Of a stretch of 64,000 bases of DNA, positions 10,067 to 24,426 are shown in pieces. Below the pieces are notes generated by a model. It saw only the letters and a program-made list of their open reading frames with translations. It did no database searches and had not been told where the DNA came from. The position numbers were made by a program, and so were the translations under genes. The stretch's first letter is position 1. Each line of letters begins with the position of its first letter. The stretch lies in the NCBI RefSeq assembly GCF_058153355.1, contig NZ_CM177019.1; one strand, given 5' to 3'.

Positions 10067-10644
10067 AGCATGTACTGCATACCTCCTGCCTTAGAATTAT
10101 CTCCGGCTAACTCCACCAAACATGGCTGTACACAGCCAGATAAGAACGCTTGCGCGCATCTGGATATCATACCGCTGCTGGAACTGTTTCTTAATCATCC
10201 TACCTTATTCGACCTATTCGTTACTGGCCATTATGAAGGACGCAAAGTAAGCGCTTTTTATGCGTTTTGGCCTAGTTATTATCACGTTACCTTAATATTA
10301 TCAGGAACGAGTTAACGCTGCTCATAACGGTCAAACCGATACTATAAAGCCCAATAATTGAAACCTTTTCATCATGTCAGGAAGATAGTCATCCTTATGA
10401 TCTTTATATAAAAAAGCCAACCATGGGGTTGGCAAAGTGGCACAAACCAGCATAAAAGCTATGCTTTGTTTACAAATCTTCTTTGAATTAAATATATATC
10501 GTCCTGACTAAACAGAACTAAAACGGAATGAATTATTTAATCATATTACTAAATTTCATTTTGTTTAGACTCTGTTGAGATCCCTTGTTTTAAATTTCAT
10601 TTAGATAAAATTCTTAATTAAATCCTTGGGAGTCAATTATCTCT

Positions 10645-10899
10645 ATGCAAAGTCAAGGAATGTACTTTGAAATGAACCTATACGCATATTTGAATAAATA
10701 TGATAGTCGGCTTTCAGAAGAAAAACTTGCAATTGATAAGGCAGTTAGAGATTTATATCTTTGCAACGAACACGTGGATAACAAGAGCATTATACTGAAA
10801 TTGCTCTCATTTTTATCATCTGCTGATGACATTGTTGAAAAAGATATTATCAGGAATGCTTTGGAAGTGGTGCTTCTTTTTACATTAGACGATATTTAA
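10645..10899 (+). CDS. AriR/YmgB-family paralog (connector-like small protein)
   Basis: 84-aa ORF; C-terminal half NKSIILKLLSFLSSADDIVEKDIIRNALEVVLLFTLDDI aligns with Ari[40 protein letters not shown]. Confidence 0.7.
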   Translation: MQSQGMYFEMNLYAYLNKYDSRLSEEKLAIDKAVRDLYLCNEHVDNKSIILKLLSFLSSADDIVEKDIIRNALEVVLLFTLDDI

Positions 10900-11147
10900 G
10901 TCATCTCAGGAGTTTTAATACACGAAGAGTGCCCGGATACTAGCGATTATATTCATATTTAATTATTAGTGCGGGGAAAGAGATTATGCATTGGCATATT
11001 TCTCTAACGTCCGCGATAGAAAAACAACTTTAAATATAAATAAAGAACAAACCACCTTTGCATTCAACCTCATCTGAGCTGACTATAGTACAAATTATAT
11101 TGATATTCTTTATCAACATCATTGGAACAGAAGAATAAGGCGAAGAA

Positions 11148-11471
11148 ATGAAGTGTATAGTAATTGATACTGTAATACAACCTTCGTGTGGTATATATTT
11201 TTCAGTCATATGGAGCGATATAAAAATGATCATTTGGTATCGTTCAAATATCTTTCTCCCACCTGGCAGCATATTTACAGTTATTAAGTCAGGTATTATA
11301 CTCGAGGATAAAGAATATCCGATCAGTATTTTTAACGTGGCGCTATTCAACAAAAATTTATGGAATTTAATCAAAAATAGTCAAGAGTGTCCTACAGAAT
11401 CAAACAAAATTACGAATAAATGCCTGCATAAGCATTGCATTATGCAAATATGTCCACATGGTCTCAAGTAA
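11148..11471 (+). CDS. iraM: Anti-adaptor protein IraM
   Basis: 107-aa [21 protein letters not shown]...[18 protein letters not shown]; recognised as IraM. Confidence 0.88.
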
Positions 11472-11518
11472 TGGGGGTTATTTAACCTTCCCTATATGCT
11501 ATAGATAAATCTACCAAA

Positions 11519-11560
11519 AACTGCCCCTTCGTAGAGGGGCTCTATGATTTTGTTTTATTT
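11519..11560 (+). terminator. Rho-independent terminator after iraM
   Basis: GC hairpin CTGCCCC-TTCGTAG-AGGGGC followed by a T-rich tract. Confidence 0.6.
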
Positions 11561-12205
11561 GAAGGCATGGTGCTGAATGTACTCGTTGAATCCAGATTCA
11601 ACACCTGAAGCTACACTTAACCCATAATACTTGTTTCTGGTTCCTCTACCGAGTGGTCAAACAATGATATGTATGTGACGTCAGAGTTTATTTTTTTAGT
11701 GTTTAATGCTATTAATTTAACGTAGTTACCTATCTTTTTTCTACCTTCTGAACTAACCTTAGGTTTCAACGTATCCGGCAGGAGGGGCTATCCCCAATCT
11801 TAAATTTTGCTGCCCGATTTGCTCAAGCCAAAGTTTTAATTTTACAACCTATAAACCTGAGTTAAATCAACCTCATGGTGCTGTCTGTTCCCGCTGTGGA
11901 ACAAGACTCACTGCAACATCTTGCATTCCTAAACTTCGCAGAAGGCGATGGGCAAAAACTGTACTGTAATGTTATTTCGATGTCTCTTATGGTAAATAGG
12001 AGGCGTCGAGGCTAAGTGAGTAGCCTGCTTGCTTCTCAAGCCTGGATACTATCAGCATTCACGTCAGATGAAATGATGATATTTCGCGTAAGAAAGAGGC
12101 ATTTTTTTATCAACTTCACATCGGAGATGGTAATAATCCTATGGGTCCAGTCCATATGAGGGGGTCAACATACTATAAAATTCACAATCATAAATTAACT
12201 ATATA

Positions 12206-13663
12206 TCAAGAACGCCAAAAAAATCCTGAAAATAGTATAATAACAGGGTAAATTTCAAGTCGACCAAGAATCATAGCAATACACATGAGATATTTTGCAA
12301 TATCATTAAGAACACCGAATGAGGATGCGGTAGCCCCAAAACCCAGCCCCATATTATTAATGCATGCAGCGACTGTCGCAAATGATGTAAGGAAATCATA
12401 TCCCATACCGTTTAGCACCAGTATAAAAAACACTGTAAAGAAAGTATAAAGAAAAAAGAAACTCCATACAGACCTCATTACGCGGTCTGTAACAATCTTC
12501 CCTCCTACATTTACACTAAGCAATGCTCTGGGATGAGAAAGCTGATTTATTTCGTGTTTACTTTGTTTAAAAAGTATAAGAAATCTAAGTGATTTAATTC
12601 CGCCGCACGTTGAGCCTATACATCCCCCAAAAAAACTTGACAGCAGCAAAAAAACTATCGTATGTGTGGGCCAGTTTGAATAATCCTGCGTAGCTAAACC
12701 ATTATCAGTGAGCATGGAGCTAGCAAGAAAAAACGAATGAACAACACTTCCAGTTAAGTCATACATACCTATATGCCAGACCTGGAAAGAGGTAACAATA
12801 ATAACACCTGAAGCTATTAACAAAAAGAAACGAAGTTCAACATCTGTGAGTAAGGGTTTTATTGTTTTCCTGCTTATAACAACATACCAAAGAGTGAAGT
12901 TGAAAGCCGATAACAGAGAAAAAGAGCCCGCCACCAGTTCAATCAAATAATTATTGAAATAGCCGATACTCTCACTATGAGTTGAAAAACCGCCAAGAGA
13001 AACTGTAGAAAGTCCATGACAAATAGCATCAAACAAAGGCATTCCTGCAAGTCGATAACAAACAATACAAGCAATGCCTAATAAAGAATAAGTTATCCAA
13101 AGTGTCCGCGACGTATCAGCCAAGCGTGGAGTCAGTTTGTCATCCTTAAATGGCCCTGGCATTTCTGACTGATAAAGTTTTGCACCACCAATACCCAATA
13201 ATGGCAACACAGCAACTGCCAGAACAATAACCCCTAAACCGCCGATAAAATTTAATTGTGACCGGTAGAACAAATATGCCCGAGATAATGAACTGACATC
13301 ATCAATTACTGTTGCTCCTGTTGTTGTTATTCCGGAAACCCCTTCAAACAGCGCGTCAGCAAACGTTAAATTAAGCTCTGAATCAATCCATAATGGAAAT
13401 GCGCTAATAATAGAAAATAAAATCCAAAACATTACAATTATAATAAACCCATCACGGGTGCGTAATTGAATGCCAGATTTTTTAGTGGTATACCACGCTC
13501 CGCCACCAATACAAAAAAATATAACAAAAGTAATAAAAAAAACGAACAAGCTTTTTTCTTTATAAAACAATGCTACAACCATTGGTGGTAACATTGAAAG
13601 ACTATAGAGCCAGACCAAGAACCCACACATATGAGTTACAACTCTTACATGAGATGTATTCAT
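12206..13663 (-). CDS. trkG: TrkH/TrkG-family K+ uptake membrane protein (TrkG-like)
   Basis: Multi-pass membrane protein with TrkH-family motifs (SGITTTGATV, repeated G-rich pore loops); 485 aa from MNTSHV (ORF could start 18 nt upstream at 13681); very AT-rich. Confidence 0.7.
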   Translation of the reverse strand: MNTSHVRVVTHMCGFLVWLYSLSMLPPMVVALFYKEKSLFVFFITFVIFFCIGGGAWYTTKKSGIQLRTRDGFIIIVMFWILFSIISAFPLWIDSELNLTFADALFEGVSGITTTGATVIDDVSSLSRAYLFYRSQLNFIGGLGVIVLAVAVLPLLGIGGAKLYQSEMPGPFKDDKLTPRLADTSRTLWITYSLLGIACIVCYRLAGMPLFDAICHGLSTVSLGGFSTHSESIGYFNNYLIELVAGSFSLLSAFNFTLWYVVISRKTIKPLLTDVELRFFLLIASGVIIVTSFQVWHIGMYDLTGSVVHSFFLASSMLTDNGLATQDYSNWPTHTIVFLLLSSFFGGCIGSTCGGIKSLRFLILFKQSKHEINQLSHPRALLSVNVGGKIVTDRVMRSVWSFFFLYTFFTVFFILVLNGMGYDFLTSFATVAACINNMGLGFGATASSFGVLNDIAKYLMCIAMILGRLEIYPVIILFSGFFWRS

Positions 13664-14099
13664 ATCCAAATGTTCTTTCAATTATAACCACCTTACTGCA
13701 ATGTCATGATTATACTGTATAAATTTTAACTCTTCTTAGATCTTACTTCACTGGTCCTTATGAAACAATCAGCAAAATGAATCTTATTATAACACTGTTC
13801 GGTTATGTATTGTTGAGCCTTCCCGCTGGGCCTGCATCATTACAAGTCGCTCCCTATGGGGCTTTGTCGAATAAATAATTTTTCGGTAAGTATCCCCTGA
13901 GCAGGTTGTATCTTCAGGCAGTATGAACACTTTCTGGCATACCTACCTTCGTCATTATGTTCAGCGTATGCACCATGACCAAAGCCTCTGCAACCGGCCG
14001 ATCATAATCTAGCAACATCAGAGAACCTCAGAATAACTGTTTTACCCTGTACATTGCCGTTTCCGCTATTGAGCAACGATTGTAATCTTTTGTCCATTT

Positions 14100-22217: not shown

Positions 22218-22234
22218 GGTTTATTTAATGTTTA
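22218..22234 (+). promoter_or_regulatory. PhoP box in the phoPQ promoter
   Basis: Direct repeat GGTTTA-TTTAA-TGTTTA about 60 bp upstream of the phoP start, matching the (T/G)GTTTA-N5-(T/G)GTTTA consensus. Confidence 0.7.
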
Positions 22235-22294
22235 CCCCCATAACGACATAATCGCGTTACACTATTTTAATAATTAAAACAGGGAGAATGAAAA

Positions 22295-22966
22295 ATGCGC
22301 GTACTGGTTGTTGAAGACAATGCGTTGTTACGTCACCATCTTAAAGTTCAGATTCAGGATGCTGGTCATCAGGTCGATGACGCAGAAGATGCCAAAGAAG
22401 CCGATTATTATCTCAATGAGCATTTACCGGATATTGCGATTGTCGATCTCGGTTTGCCTGACGAGGACGGTCTGTCATTGATTCGCCGCTGGCGTAGCAA
22501 TGATGTTTCACTGCCGATTCTGGTATTAACCGCCCGTGAAAGCTGGCAGGACAAAGTCGAAGTATTAAGTGCCGGTGCTGATGATTACGTGACTAAACCG
22601 TTTCATATTGAAGAGGTGATGGCGCGAATGCAGGCATTAATGCGGCGTAATAGCGGTCTGGCTTCCCAGGTCATTTCGCTACCACCGTTTCAGGTTGATC
22701 TCTCCCGCCGTGAATTATCTATTAATGACGAAGTGATCAAACTGACCGCGTTCGAATACACCATTATGGAAACGTTGATACGCAATAATGGCAAAGTGGT
22801 CAGCAAAGATTCGTTAATGCTACAACTCTACCCGGATGCGGAGCTGCGGGAAAGCCATACCATTGATGTACTGATGGGACGTCTGCGCAAAAAAATTCAG
22901 GCACAATATCCGCAAGAAGTGATTACCACCGTTCGCGGCCAGGGCTATCTGTTCGAATTGCGCTGA
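22295..22966 (+). CDS. phoP: Response regulator PhoP
   Basis: 223-aa OmpR-family regulator ([25 protein letters not shown]...). Confidence 0.96.
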
Positions 22967-24426
22967 TGAAAAAATTACTGCGTCTTTTTTTCCCGCTCTC
23001 GCTGCGGGTACGTTTTCTATTGGCAACGGCAGCGGTTGTACTGGTGCTTTCGCTTGCCTACGGAATGGTTGCGCTGATCGGTTATAGCGTCAGTTTCGAT
23101 AAAACCACGTTTCGGCTGTTACGTGGCGAGAGCAATCTGTTCTATACCCTTGCGAAGTGGGAAAACAATAAGTTGCATGTCGAGTTACCCGAAAATATCG
23201 ACAAGCAAAGCCCCACCATGACGCTAATTTATGATGAGAACGGGCAGCTTTTATGGGCGCAACGTGACGTGCCCTGGCTGATGAAGATGATCCAGCCTGA
23301 CTGGCTGAAATCGAATGGTTTTCATGAAATTGAAGCGGATGTTAACGATACCAGCCTCTTGCTGAGTGGAGATCATTCGATACAGCAACAGTTGCAGGAA
23401 GTGCGGGAAGATGATGACGACGCGGAGATGACCCACTCGGTGGCGGTAAACGTCTACCCGGCAACATCGCGGATGCCAAAGTTAACCATTGTGGTGGTGG
23501 ATACCATTCCGGTGGAGCTAAAAAGTTCCTATATGGTCTGGAGCTGGTTTATCTATGTGCTCTCAGCCAATCTGCTGTTAGTGATCCCGCTGCTGTGGGT
23601 CGCCGCCTGGTGGAGTTTACGCCCCATCGAAGCCCTGGCAAAAGAAGTCCGCGAACTGGAAGAACATAACCGCGAATTGCTCAATCCAGCCACAACGCGA
23701 GAACTGACCAGTCTGGTACGAAACCTGAACCGACTGTTAAAAAGTGAACGCGAACGTTACGACAAATATCGTACGACGCTCACCGACCTGACCCATAGTC
23801 TGAAAACGCCACTGGCGGTGCTGCAAAGTACGCTGCGTTCTCTGCGTAGTGAGAAGATGAGCGTCAGTGATGCTGAGCCGGTGATGCTGGAGCAAATCAG
23901 CCGCATTTCACAGCAAATTGGCTACTACCTGCATCGTGCCAGTATGCGCGGTGGGACATTGCTTAGCCGCGAGCTGCATCCGGTCGCCCCTCTGTTGGAC
24001 AATCTCACCTCGGCGCTGAACAAAGTGTATCAACGCAAAGGGGTCAATATCTCTCTCGATATTTCACCAGAGATCAGCTTTGTTGGTGAGCAGAACGATT
24101 TTGTCGAGGTGATGGGCAACGTGCTGGATAACGCCTGTAAATATTGCCTCGAGTTTGTCGAAATATCTGCAAGGCAAACCGACGAGCATCTCTATATTGT
24201 GGTCGAGGATGATGGCCCCGGTATTCCATTAAGCAAGCGAGAGGTCATTTTCGACCGTGGTCAACGGGTTGATACTTTACGCCCTGGGCAAGGTGTAGGG
24301 CTGGCGGTAGCCCGCGAAATCACCGAGCAGTATGAGGGTAAAATCGTCGCCGGAGAGAGCATGCTGGGCGGTGCGCGGATGGAGGTGATTTTTGGTCGCC
24401 AGCATTCTGCGCCGAAAGATGAATAA
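22966..24426 (+). CDS. phoQ: Sensor histidine kinase PhoQ
   Basis: 486-aa ORF with two TM segments, H-box ([12 protein letters not shown]) and ATPase domain; start overlaps phoP stop. Confidence 0.96.

What the first reader, a model, noticed from the sequence alone, without database searches (positions are those of the whole stretch)
10645..10899. Second AriR/YmgB-family connector-like gene between ycgX and iraM
The 84-aa ORF shares the C-terminal helix motif of AriR (NK.IIL.L...L....DI...D.IR..LE.VL..T.DD), yet the canonical ycgZ-ymgA-ariR-ymgC operon is present 4.5 kb away. A paralogous small regulator adjacent to the anti-adaptor iraM could extend the RcsB/RpoS-connected biofilm and acid-resistance circuitry.
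Basis: seen in the sequence. Interest (0 to 1): 0.45.

Follow-up and report, generated by a model that had tools for sequence, protein, structure and literature searches.

The report
Rare AriR-like gene upstream of iraM
This is a real but uncharacterised small gene of the AriR/YmgB family, found in about 0.5% of complete E. coli genomes, and its remnant in K-12 suggests that the well-studied iraM gene inherited its upstream control region from it.

Summary
The 84-codon ORF at 10645-10899 (+) is real. It passes Pfam's YmgB/AriR model (52 bits; cut-off 22). It is 36% identical to the AriR encoded 4.5 kb away. Its predicted structure superposes on the YmgB crystal structure (2OXL; rmsd 0.7 Å). 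It is under purifying selection (dN/dS 0.10-0.16 in frame, about 1.4 out of frame).

It is not new as a sequence: RefSeq already calls it "biofilm development regulator YmgB/AriR family protein". I found no paper that studies it.

The context is the more interesting result.
- **Distribution:** only 29 of 5,426 complete E. coli genomes carry it, as two old alleles about 75% identical. Both checked loci lie between ycgX and iraM. A non-coli Escherichia has the same gene-iraM pair.
- **Loss:** K-12-type genomes (3,882 of 5,426) keep its upstream region and first codons, then lack about 0.43 kb up to 21 nt before iraM.
- **Likely control (inferred):** that upstream region holds PhoP-box-like repeats. 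One lies 12 nt from a -10-like hexamer, as at phoP in this window. No terminator-like site separates the gene from iraM.

Most likely it is the first gene of an ancestral PhoP-type two-gene unit with iraM. PhoP control, co-transcription and protein partners (Rcs, SpoT) are untested.

The parts
10645..10899 (+). CDS of an 84-aa YmgB/AriR-family protein (stop codon included). Alternative in-frame starts lie at 10660 and 10672; RefSeq uses about 10672 (75 aa) in strain 2013C-4282.
   Evidence: ORF listed. Pfam PF10798 at 52.4 bits. 2OXL match at E=5.7e-11. AlphaFold2 model with pLDDT 82 superposes on 2OXL_A at TM(target) 0.96 and rmsd 0.7 Å. dN/dS is 0.10-0.16 in frame and 1.38-1.45 out of frame. 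All family-invariant columns are kept. RefSeq annotation.
10562..10578 (+). PhoP-box-like direct repeat TGTTTA-GACTC-TGTTGA, 67 nt upstream of the ATG (inferred regulator site).
   Evidence: It is the only match to TGTTKA-N5-TGTTKA in 64 kb, where 0.04 is expected. It has one mismatch to (T/G)GTTTA-N5-(T/G)GTTTA; the same search recovers the authentic phoP promoter box at 22218-22234. It is conserved in four haplotypes, with a degenerate second half-site in K-12. No binding data exist.
10509..10525 (-). Second, inverted PhoP-box-like repeat (CGTTTT-AGTTC-TGTTTA on the - strand; 2 mismatches), about 50 nt upstream of the first.
   Evidence: Read from the sequence. The homologous K-12 site was reported with 2 mismatches. 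The block CTAAACA(G/A)A(A/T)CTAAAACG is nearly invariant across the four haplotypes aligned. It is a weak consensus match, so its function is inferred only.
10591..10596 (+). Candidate -10 hexamer TAAATT inside the conserved block TTGTTTTAAATTT. It lies 12 nt after the PhoP-like box. The inferred transcription start is near 10603-10605.
   Evidence: Sequence. The block is conserved in all four haplotypes and reads TATAAAT in the non-coli Escherichia. The phoP promoter in this window has the same 12-nt spacing, from the box ending at 22234 to CATAAT at 22247-22252. The generic sigma-70 scan did not report this site, as expected for a promoter without a -35 hexamer.
10625..10632 (+). Purine-rich Shine-Dalgarno-like element (GGGAG), 12 nt before the ATG at 10645.
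   Evidence: Sequence. The element aligns with GGGGG in the non-coli Escherichia and GGGGGGG in K-12. The spacing is longer than optimal, which is one reason the start codon is uncertain.
10900..11147 (+). 248-nt spacer between the gene and iraM. It has no terminator-like site on the + strand. It is homologous to the promoter and transcription-start region of prophage-borne iraL.
   Evidence: The terminator scan finds none on the + strand between 10899 and 11148; the first + strand site is 11523-11540, after iraM. The alignment with regions upstream of iraL shows homology, including the published iraL mRNA 5' end ACATCACCAGC..., which aligns with ACATCATTGGA in the window (PMC4045071). This spacer is missing in K-12 except for its last 21 nt.
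11148..11471 (+). iraM, a divergent allele (72% aa identity to K-12 IraM), the likely downstream partner gene.
   Evidence: ORF. Alignment. RefSeq annotates the same sequence as anti-adapter protein IraM. This allele (95% nt identity or more) occurs in 18 records, the same number as carry the window-type YmgB-like gene. The gene-iraM pair is conserved in GF4-3 and in a non-coli Escherichia.
11523..11540 (+). Terminator-like hairpin after iraM, the probable end of the transcription unit.
   Evidence: stem GCCCCTTCGTAGAGGGGC followed by a T-rich tail.

Best explanation
The ORF is a functional gene for a small, all-helical protein of the YmgB/AriR family. It belongs to an old, divergent paralogue lineage and is not a recent copy of ariR. 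It is the promoter-proximal gene of a conserved two-gene unit with iraM. The unit lies behind an upstream region with PhoP-box-like repeats and a -10 hexamer, arranged as at the phoP promoter.

In most E. coli, including K-12, a deletion of about 0.43 kb removed the gene body and the spacer. This fused the gene's upstream region, ribosome-binding site and first codons directly to iraM. A 22-codon remnant ORF is left, whose TGA stop overlaps the iraM ATG. The window therefore shows the undeleted state in one of two deeply diverged haplotypes.

Proposed mechanism (inferred): under PhoP-activating conditions such as low Mg2+ or mild acid, the cell makes this protein together with IraM. IraM blocks RssB and so stabilises RpoS. 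The AriR-like protein acts by protein-protein contact, as AriR does. Candidate routes are activation of the Rcs phosphorelay and/or binding of SpoT to raise ppGpp. Either would reinforce the same stress, acid-resistance and anti-biofilm output.

Shown here: coding status, family and predicted fold, selection, distribution, the gene-iraM pairing, and the deletion scar. Inferred only: PhoP control, co-transcription and the protein's partners.
For: **Family and fold**
- PF10798 matches at 52.4 bits against a cut-off of 22.3, and 2OXL at E=5.7e-11.
- The AlphaFold2 model (pLDDT 82, pTM 0.74) superposes on 2OXL_A with TM 0.96 (target-normalised) and rmsd 0.7 Å over 61 columns. No other PDB match reaches E<=0.001.
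- All four invariant and eleven near-invariant columns of a 31-sequence family alignment are kept, including R70, the equivalent of AriR R74.

**Selection**
- dN/dS is 0.157, 0.102 and 0.155 for the three pairs of haplotypes, at dS 0.66-0.80.
- The two wrong frames give 1.38-1.45.

**Old paralogue**
- Among 1.84 billion representative proteins, one other representative scores E<=1e-30 (73% identical, the second E. coli allele), alongside three short fragments.
- The next relatives are 32-48% identical and include E. coli AriR at 39%.

**Pairing with iraM**
- The pair is found in the window, in GF4-3 and in a non-coli Escherichia whose flanking genes are 88.8% identical to E. coli.
- The spacer is 242-248 nt in each case.
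- There is no + strand terminator-like site until after iraM.

**Deletion in K-12**
- GF4-3 has K-12-like ycgX (98.8% nt) and iraM (97.2% nt) but keeps the gene.
- K-12 aligns through the upstream region and the first 25-50 nt of the ORF, then resumes 21 nt before iraM.
- The junction is present in 3,882 of 5,426 genomes.
- The 22-codon remnant stays open in three K-12-type genomes.

**PhoP-type promoter region**
- The PhoP-like box is unique in the window, against 0.04 expected.
- It has the same 12-nt spacing to a -10 hexamer as the genuine phoP promoter in the window.
- It is conserved across haplotypes.
- iraM is reported to be induced through PhoP/PhoQ under Mg2+ starvation (review PMC10948607), and ycgW falls to 0.09-fold in a Shigella phoPQ mutant (PMC5775216).

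**AriR mechanisms from the literature**
- YmgB binds SpoT mainly through helix 3, and this requires R74 (PMC10704370).
Against: - No expression, transcription-start or PhoP-binding data exist for this gene. I could not obtain the primary papers that map the K-12 iraM promoter, so equating that promoter with this region is an inference.
- In K-12 the aligned forward box is degenerate (TGTTTA-N5-CATTGA, 3 mismatches to the consensus). Matches of that quality are no more frequent than chance in that locus (51 found against 39 expected).
- The Shine-Dalgarno spacing is long, and RefSeq disagrees on the start codon.
- The spacer is homologous to the iraL promoter region, so iraM in this window may be transcribed mainly from its own proximal promoter.
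- Loss from about 99.5% of genomes shows the gene is dispensable.
- Occasional frameshifted copies exist (P0017 and P0021).
- Helix-3 similarity does not establish that the paralogue shares AriR's partners. It differs at the family's usual L-E motif (L-S here) and at the Y-F-x-x-x-G motif.
Confidence: 0.6

Rival explanations
1. An autonomous AriR-like regulator that merely sits next to iraM. It would be transcribed on its own, probably silenced by H-NS and induced by an unknown signal, and would act like AriR on Rcs or SpoT. iraM would be expressed from its own proximal, iraL-type promoter, with no PhoP link to this gene.
For: The 248-nt spacer is homologous to the region that carries the iraL promoter and transcription start (PMC4045071), so iraM here probably has its own promoter. 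The region is AT-rich, at 32-39% GC. Shimada et al. mark the K-12 ycgX-iraM spacer as H-NS associated (PMC3946193). The PhoP-like boxes are only consensus matches.
Against: The gene-iraM pairing and spacer length are kept in three haplotypes separated by dS of 0.66-0.80. No terminator-like site lies between the genes. In K-12 the only sequence left upstream of iraM, apart from 21 nt, is this gene's upstream region, yet iraM is reported to be PhoP-dependent there.
Confidence: 0.25
2. A decaying relic: an ORF still open in a few lineages but no longer functional, on its way to the loss already seen in most E. coli.
For: The gene is present in only 29 of 5,426 complete genomes. It is deleted in 3,882 and absent from the species-representative genomes scanned. 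Frameshifted variants exist (P0017, P0021). One of the 29 hits aligns with a 1-nt indel (H80).
Against: dN/dS is 0.10-0.16 over dS of 0.66-0.80 in all three haplotype pairs, against about 1.4 in the wrong frames. All 15 invariant or near-invariant family positions are kept. The model is confident and AriR-like. The ORF length is identical (255 nt) across alleles, allowing for the 2-codon start difference.
Confidence: 0.08
3. A modulator of AriR itself. The paralogue would form heterodimers with AriR, or with YmgA or YcgZ, and so tune or antagonise the BluR-controlled connector module rather than act on its own targets.
For: YmgB crystallises and behaves as a dimer (2OXL; two-hybrid self-interaction in PMC10704370). 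The paralogue shares the fold and the hydrophobic core residues. Carrier genomes keep both genes.
Against: Nothing here addresses heterodimerisation. The two genes are on opposite strands with different upstream regions. At 36% identity, specificity for self-association is at least as likely.
Confidence: 0.07

Closest known systems
AriR (YmgB) of E. coli K-12, PDB 2OXL, Pfam PF10798
   Same: Same Pfam family, with the same predicted helices 2-4 superposing on the crystal structure at 0.7 Å. Same invariant residues: N-K-x-I-I, D-x-x-R-x-x-L-E-x-V and T-x-D-D. The Arg needed by AriR for SpoT binding is kept. Similar length (84 aa against 88 aa). The locus neighbourhood is the same.
   Different: Only 36% identical overall. 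NCBIfam has no named match. It lies outside the BluR-repressed ycgZ-ymgABC operon, on the other strand, behind a different upstream region, and is paired with iraM. It is present in about 0.5% of complete E. coli genomes rather than most of them. It reads L-S where the family has L-E, and D where the family has G. Its function is untested.
YcgZ and YmgA, the other small proteins of the ycgZ-ymgABC operon
   Same: These are small helical proteins of the same gene neighbourhood. YcgZ also passes the PF10798 cut-off at 24.6 bits.
   Different: They are 19% identical to the ORF in the alignment. YmgA gives no Pfam hit. The ORF is much closer to AriR-type members than to either protein.
iraM (ycgW) of E. 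coli K-12 and its PhoP-dependent upstream region
   Same: The K-12 sequence upstream of iraM is homologous to the region upstream of this ORF. It includes the PhoP-box-like repeats, the -10 block, the ribosome-binding site and the first codons.
   Different: K-12 lacks the gene body and the 248-nt spacer. It carries only a 22-codon remnant ORF that overlaps the iraM start and is not annotated in NC_000913.3. The window's IraM is 72% identical to K-12 IraM.
PmrD, and the connector concept of small PhoP-induced proteins that link two-component systems
   Same: IraM has a PmrD-like fold and binds a response regulator (bioRxiv 10.1101/2023.01.07.523045). AriR is described as a connector to the Rcs system. 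The unit here would therefore encode two connector-type proteins behind a PhoP-type promoter region.
   Different: The ORF itself has no similarity to PmrD. PhoP control of the ORF is inferred, not shown.

Membership tests
YmgB/AriR family (Pfam PF10798) | Sequence match to the family profile above the curated gathering score | tested here: met
   52.4 bits against a cut-off of 22.3, E=4.8e-14, covering profile positions 2-59 of 59.
YmgB/AriR family (Pfam PF10798) | Compact helical fold as in the YmgB crystal structure 2OXL | tested here: met
   AlphaFold2 model with pLDDT 82 and pTM 0.74. Foldseek gives 2OXL_A at E=3.5e-4, probability 1.00, TM(target) 0.96 and rmsd 0.7 Å over 61 columns, with no other match at E<=0.001. 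This is a predicted, not a solved, structure.
YmgB/AriR family (Pfam PF10798) | Family-invariant residues (N-K-x-I-I; D-x-x-R-x-x-L-E-x-V; T-x-D-D) | tested here: met
   In a 31-sequence alignment, the four invariant positions (L53, D67, R70, L73) and the eleven near-invariant positions are all present in the ORF.
YmgB/AriR family (Pfam PF10798) | Homodimer formation | not testable with these tools
   No multimer prediction or experiment is available here. AriR dimerises (2OXL; PMC10704370).
AriR orthologue (the characterised biofilm/acid-resistance regulator) | Third gene of the BluR-repressed ycgZ-ymgA-ariR-ymgC operon, with high identity to K-12 AriR | tested here: not met
   The true ariR is at 5876-6142 (-) and is 97.8% identical in protein to K-12 AriR. 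The ORF is 36% identical to it, lies on the other strand beyond bluR-ycgX, and has no NCBIfam match.
AriR-like function | Activates the Rcs phosphorelay, represses biofilm and raises acid resistance | not testable with these tools
   This is known for YmgB (PMC3509220). There are no data for the paralogue.
AriR-like function | Binds SpoT through helix 3, which requires Arg74 | tested here: inconclusive
   The equivalent Arg (R70) and most of helix 3 are conserved (PMC10704370). Binding itself cannot be tested here.
PhoP regulon promoter | (T/G)GTTTA-N5-(T/G)GTTTA box about 12 nt upstream of a -10 hexamer; PhoP binding and PhoP-dependent expression | tested here: inconclusive
   The box at 10562-10578 has 1 mismatch and is unique in the window for the relaxed pattern, against 0.04 expected. 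It has the same 12-nt spacing to a -10-like hexamer as the phoP promoter at 22218-22252, and it is conserved. No binding or expression data exist. The K-12 copy is degenerate.
Operon with iraM | Same strand, conserved adjacency, no intervening terminator, one transcript | tested here: inconclusive
   Same strand and a 242-248 nt spacer in three haplotypes. No terminator-like site lies between the genes. However, the spacer resembles the iraL promoter region, and no transcript data exist.

The most novel reading that the evidence does not exclude
The PhoP-dependent upstream region and leader of K-12 iraM are the fossil of this lost gene. On this reading, the ancestral Escherichia locus was a PhoP-controlled bicistron encoding two connector-type proteins, an AriR-like helical protein and the PmrD-like anti-adaptor IraM. 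IraM would also have had a proximal, iraL-type constitutive promoter. A single deletion of about 0.43 kb, now present in about 72% of E. coli, removed the first gene and the proximal promoter. That would leave iraM dependent on the distal promoter and translationally coupled to a 22-codon remnant ORF. It would explain why IraM is induced by low Mg2+ whereas the prophage-borne IraL is expressed in log phase. The rare carrier strains would then couple PhoP not only to RpoS stability but also to Rcs and/or ppGpp signalling through the AriR-like protein.
Probability: 0.4. Interest if true: 0.55.

Novelty: new member of a known kind. Interest (0 to 1): 0.35.

Why it matters
As a gene, this is an ordinary addition: one more small protein of the AriR/YmgB family, already labelled as such by automatic annotation. 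Two things give it some value.

First, it offers a natural experiment. A few E. coli strains carry an extra AriR-like protein that is probably tied to iraM and PhoP. They could show whether members of this family have distinct partners (Rcs, SpoT, or something else).

Second, it suggests where the upstream region and leader of K-12 iraM came from. iraM is a widely used model for control of RpoS stability. The comparison gives a concrete, testable reason why IraM and IraL are regulated differently. It also points to an unannotated 22-codon ORF overlapping the iraM start codon in K-12, which may influence iraM translation.

Tried and rejected
1. Recent duplication of ariR: rejected. The protein is 36% identical to the window's AriR. 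It is about equally distant from Enterobacter, Cedecea and Erwinia/Pantoea members.

2. Phage or plasmid cargo: rejected for the collections searched. tblastn found nothing in 50,697 phage records. In plasmid records it found only ariR itself, on records that look like mislabelled chromosome pieces. The related iraL, by contrast, is prophage-borne and has no YmgB-like neighbour.

3. Orthologues in other species: a scan of one genome per species (GTDB representatives) with subfamily peptide patterns found none. A scan with IraM found only E. albertii (iraL-like), a 558-bp stray contig and Superficieibacter, none with a YmgB-like neighbour. The only non-coli carrier came from exact-protein look-up of P0011 in Logan assemblies. 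Its species could not be named beyond a non-coli Escherichia lineage, because the 90% identity protein cluster of its HglS holds mainly unclassified Escherichia and E. whittamii, together with some records labelled E. coli.

4. Remnant in K-12 at protein level: tblastn found only ariR. The remnant is too short for that and was found by DNA alignment.

5. Primary papers mapping the K-12 iraM promoter (Bougdour 2008; Battesti 2012) are not in the held library. Searches for iraM with 'PhoP box' gave nothing usable. The RpoD-holoenzyme promoter reported between iraM and ycgX (TTCATA-17-CATAAT, PMC3946193) lies just before ymgL, about 650 nt upstream of iraM, and is not the region discussed here.

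6. Known RNA families in 9800-11700: no match reached its family's gathering score.

7. The generic sigma-70 scan gave no more sites than shuffled sequence and did not flag the proposed promoter. This is expected for an activator-dependent promoter without a -35 hexamer, so it is uninformative.

8. The overlapping - strand ORF (10653-10832, 59 aa) was considered and dismissed. The + frame carries the Pfam match and the low dN/dS.
Full report

Yes. The ORF listing gives an 84-codon ATG-initiated ORF at 10645..10899 on the + strand.

The window is an E. coli chromosome segment. On the - strand lie pdeG, ymgC (5507-5755), ariR (5876-6142), ymgA (6171-6443) and ycgZ (6486-6722). On the + strand lie bluF, bluR (8452-9183), ycgX (9404-9808), the ORF and iraM (11148-11471). 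A trkG-like gene follows on the - strand, then icd, with phoPQ further downstream.

The resemblance to AriR is statistically solid:
- Pfam PF10798 (YmgB) matches at E=4.8e-14 and 52.4 bits against a curated cut-off of 22.3, over almost the whole profile.
- The only convincing PDB sequence match is YmgB, 2OXL, at E=5.7e-11.
- Identity to the AriR encoded 4.5 kb away is 36%.

One correction to the title is needed. YcgZ also passes the Pfam cut-off (24.6 bits), so this is the third, not the second, PF10798 hit in the window.

**2. Is it a real gene?**

Three independent lines say yes.

(a) Structure. An AlphaFold2 model built on nine subfamily sequences has mean pLDDT 82 and pTM 0.74, with four helices. 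Foldseek against the PDB returns 2OXL_A with TM-score 0.96 (normalised to the target) and rmsd 0.7 Å over 61 columns. Nothing else reaches E<=0.001.

(b) Residues. In an alignment with 27 family members from other clusters, the ORF keeps all four invariant columns (L53, D67, R70, L73). It also keeps all eleven near-invariant ones: E26, N46, K47, I49, I50, L57, E74, V76, T80, D82 and D83.

(c) Selection. Three diverged copies exist: the window, strain GF4-3, and a non-coli Escherichia. Pairwise Nei-Gojobori dN/dS is 0.157, 0.102 and 0.155 at dS 0.66-0.80. The same sequences read in the two wrong frames give 1.38-1.45.

The start codon is less certain. RefSeq uses a 75-aa form in 2013C-4282, 84 aa in GF4-3, and other records use 86 aa. 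The ATG at 10645 is conserved everywhere, even in the K-12 remnant.

**3. Is it already known?**

As a sequence, yes. The exact 84-aa protein is on at least 328 contigs in public data. Its names there are "biofilm development regulator YmgB/AriR family protein" and, in UniRef, "Two-component-system connector protein AriR". RefSeq annotates it in every complete genome that has it.

As a studied gene, apparently not. Full-text searches that combined iraM with AriR, or that targeted the ymg genes, returned no paper that appears to address it. NCBIfam has no specific model for it.

**4. Distribution**

blastn at low stringency finds the gene in 29 of 5,426 complete E. coli genomes. It is always single-copy and chromosomal. 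Eighteen copies are at least 98% identical to the window and eleven are about 80% identical. The two loci inspected, one of each type, lie between ycgX and iraM.

The two allele classes are about 75% identical in protein. The window-type iraM allele (95% nt identity or more) is found in 18 records, the same number as the window-type gene.

It was not found in phage records. In plasmid records only ariR itself matched. It was also absent from one-genome-per-species representatives.

In 1.84 billion representative proteins, one other representative reaches E<=1e-30: the 73% identical second E. coli allele. Three short fragments also appear. The next relatives are ordinary AriR-type proteins at 32-48% identity, including E. 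coli AriR (P0023), Enterobacter (P0022), Cedecea (P0024) and Erwinia/Pantoea (P0031) members. It is therefore an old paralogue lineage, not a recent copy of ariR.

**5. The pairing with iraM**

The third copy (P0011, 86% identical to the window protein) lies in assemblies whose housekeeping genes (hglS, opgD) are only 88.8% identical to E. coli. That makes it a different Escherichia lineage.

In that organism the whole block sits between cybB and ydcI rather than next to icd, and ycgX is absent. The block runs ymgC-ariR-ymgA-ycgZ, then bluF-bluR, then the YmgB-like gene. An uncalled 106-codon iraM homologue follows the gene after 245 nt.

So the gene-iraM pair, with a 242-248 nt spacer, survives in three haplotypes that differ by dS of about 0.7-0.8. 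No terminator-like site occurs on the + strand between the two genes in the window. The first one follows iraM, at 11523-11540.

**6. What most E. coli have instead**

K-12 has 698 bp between ycgX and iraM, against 1,339 bp in the window. Three observations point to a deletion:
- GF4-3 carries K-12-like ycgX (98.8% nt) and iraM (97.2% nt) yet keeps the gene.
- K-12 aligns with GF4-3 through the whole upstream region and into the ORF. The alignment is unambiguous for the first 25 nt, ATGCAAAATCAAG(G/A)AAT(G/A)AA(T/C)ATCC, and with a small indel extends to about codon 18.
- K-12 then resumes 21 nt before the iraM ATG.

This is the signature of a deletion of about 0.43 kb in the K-12 lineage. An insertion in the carriers is unlikely, because the retained piece is the in-frame 5' end of a Pfam-matching gene.

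A 131-nt probe across the junction finds it in 3,882 of 5,426 genomes.

The scar leaves a 22-codon ORF. It reads MQNQEINILMNHIKYRGIRHNK in K-12 and MQNKEMNIQMNYIKYRGIRHNK in a strain whose junction region is about 93% identical to K-12's. Its TGA overlaps the iraM ATG. It is not annotated in NC_000913.3, which lists only ymgK and ymgL in this spacer.

CFT073-type genomes have no iraM here. Their homologue iraL lies in a lambdoid prophage.

**7. The upstream region**

The 250 nt before the ORF are well conserved among the window, GF4-3, the non-coli Escherichia and K-12, with mean column identity of 81%. They contain three relevant elements:
- A direct repeat TGTTTA-GACTC-TGTTGA at 10562-10578. 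It is the only match to TGTTKA-N5-TGTTKA in the 64-kb window, against 0.04 expected.
- An inverted, weaker repeat at 10509-10525.
- A conserved block, TTGTTTTAAATTT. It places a -10-like TAAATT 12 nt after the direct repeat.

As an internal control, the stricter PhoP-box pattern with at most one mismatch gives four hits in the window. One is the perfect box at 22218-22234, in front of phoP (22295-22966). That box lies 12 nt from CATAAT, the same spacing as here.

Reviews state that iraM is induced through PhoP/PhoQ under Mg2+ starvation (PMC10948607). In Shigella, ycgW falls to 0.09-fold in a phoPQ mutant (PMC5775216). In K-12 almost the only sequence left upstream of iraM is this region, so the PhoP-responsive iraM promoter most likely is this gene's promoter.

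This step is an inference for two reasons. I could not obtain the papers that map the promoter. The K-12 copy of the forward box is also degenerate.

**8. The spacer and iraL**

The 248-nt spacer aligns with the sequence upstream of prophage-borne iraL. [quoted passage not shown]

The window's iraM may therefore also have a proximal promoter of the iraL type. The K-12 deletion removed that region. This offers a simple, testable reason why IraL is expressed in log phase while K-12 IraM depends on PhoP.

**9. Likely mechanism of the protein**

What is known for AriR/YmgB:
- It activates the Rcs phosphorelay, and so lowers curli and biofilm (PMC3509220).
- Independently of Rcs, it binds the TGS-helical region of SpoT and raises ppGpp. 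Most loss-of-interaction substitutions lie in helix 3, and R74 is essential (PMC10704370).

The paralogue's most AriR-like part is exactly helix 3: DIVEKDIIRNALEVVLLFTLDDI against [23 protein letters not shown]. The Arg is kept.

IraM has a PmrD-like fold and blocks RssB (bioRxiv 10.1101/2023.01.07.523045).

My best reading is a two-gene unit that, under PhoP-activating stress, stabilises RpoS through IraM. At the same time it would push Rcs and/or ppGpp signalling through the AriR-like protein. I put about 0.95 on "real YmgB-family gene" and about 0.85 on "ancestral partner of iraM, deleted in K-12". I put about 0.5 on PhoP control and co-transcription. I put about 0.3-0.4 on any particular protein partner.

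**10. Rivals**

- An autonomous regulator unrelated to iraM or PhoP (0.25).
- A decaying relic (0.08), which the low dN/dS and the residue conservation contradict.
- A modulator that heterodimerises with AriR (0.07), which is untestable here.

**11. Verdict**

The gene itself is an ordinary, already annotated but unstudied member of a known family. It is rare, and most E. coli have lost it. The added value is evolutionary and regulatory. The gene marks the undeleted state of the iraM locus. It also suggests where the K-12 iraM upstream region and leader came from.

Noticed in passing
L002 (K-12) 7039-7107; also L013 and L014, at -65 to +3 relative to the iraM ATG: There is an unannotated 22-codon ORF, the remnant of the deleted gene. 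Its TGA overlaps the iraM start codon (ATGA). It stays open in three K-12-type genomes despite sequence differences, and could couple or attenuate iraM translation.
   Followed up: partly
window 12206-13681 (-), and 9500-14000 generally: A trkG-like potassium transporter gene lies next to iraM; in K-12, from my own knowledge, trkG sits in the Rac prophage. In the near-identical strain 2013C-4282 an IS5-family transposase fragment and a hypothetical gene lie between it and icd. The whole stretch is AT-rich (32-39% GC), consistent with acquired, H-NS-targeted DNA beside the icd integration site.
   Followed up: no
window 10416-10433 and about 10422-10455: A conserved GC-rich hairpin followed by a T-run on the - strand is kept in all four haplotypes upstream of the gene. 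It overlaps the start of K-12 ymgK. The ymgK reading frame is only 10 codons in the window, against 14 in K-12, so the conservation may reflect the hairpin rather than the peptide.
   Followed up: no
window 10331-10453 (-); L006 5629-5802 (-): A small - strand ORF has recognisably similar translations in the window and the non-coli Escherichia (...PWLAFLYK...D.MM..FQ.L.FIVSV). It contains the terminator-like hairpin, so it may not be a gene.
   Followed up: no
window 6486-6722 (-): YcgZ passes the Pfam YmgB gathering score (24.6 bits against 22.3), whereas YmgA and YmgC give no Pfam hit. The operon therefore holds at least two detectable members of the family.
   Followed up: partly
L006/L007 (Logan assemblies ERR3970404 and ERR3970605): In a non-coli Escherichia, the whole ymgC-ariR-ymgA-ycgZ / bluF-bluR / YmgB-like / iraM block lies between cybB and ydcI instead of next to icd. 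It lacks ycgX and is followed by an IS3-type transposase fragment. The block therefore appears to have moved as a unit.
   Followed up: partly
window 22218-22234 and 22295-24426: phoP-phoQ lie about 11 kb downstream of the locus. A perfect PhoP box sits 12 nt upstream of CATAAT. I used it as a positive control for the motif search.
   Followed up: yes
L005 4001-4336 and L009 3001-3321: iraL-type homologues (64% identical to the window IraM) sit among the late genes of a lambdoid prophage in E. coli JCM 5491, and an iraL-like homologue is present in the E. albertii type strain. Their upstream 100 nt are homologous to the window's gene-iraM spacer.
   Followed up: partly
window 5876-6142 (-) compared with K-12: ariR differs from K-12 at dS 0.27, against 0.04 for bluR, while its protein is 97.8% identical. 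The divergent haplotype, or a recombination tract, may therefore extend beyond the ycgX-iraM segment.
   Followed up: no
window 11511-11636 (-): There is a weak, sub-threshold Rfam match to the sRNA family STnc100 (22.9 bits against a gathering score of 47; E=0.024), just downstream of iraM and overlapping the terminator hairpin. It is probably chance.
   Followed up: no
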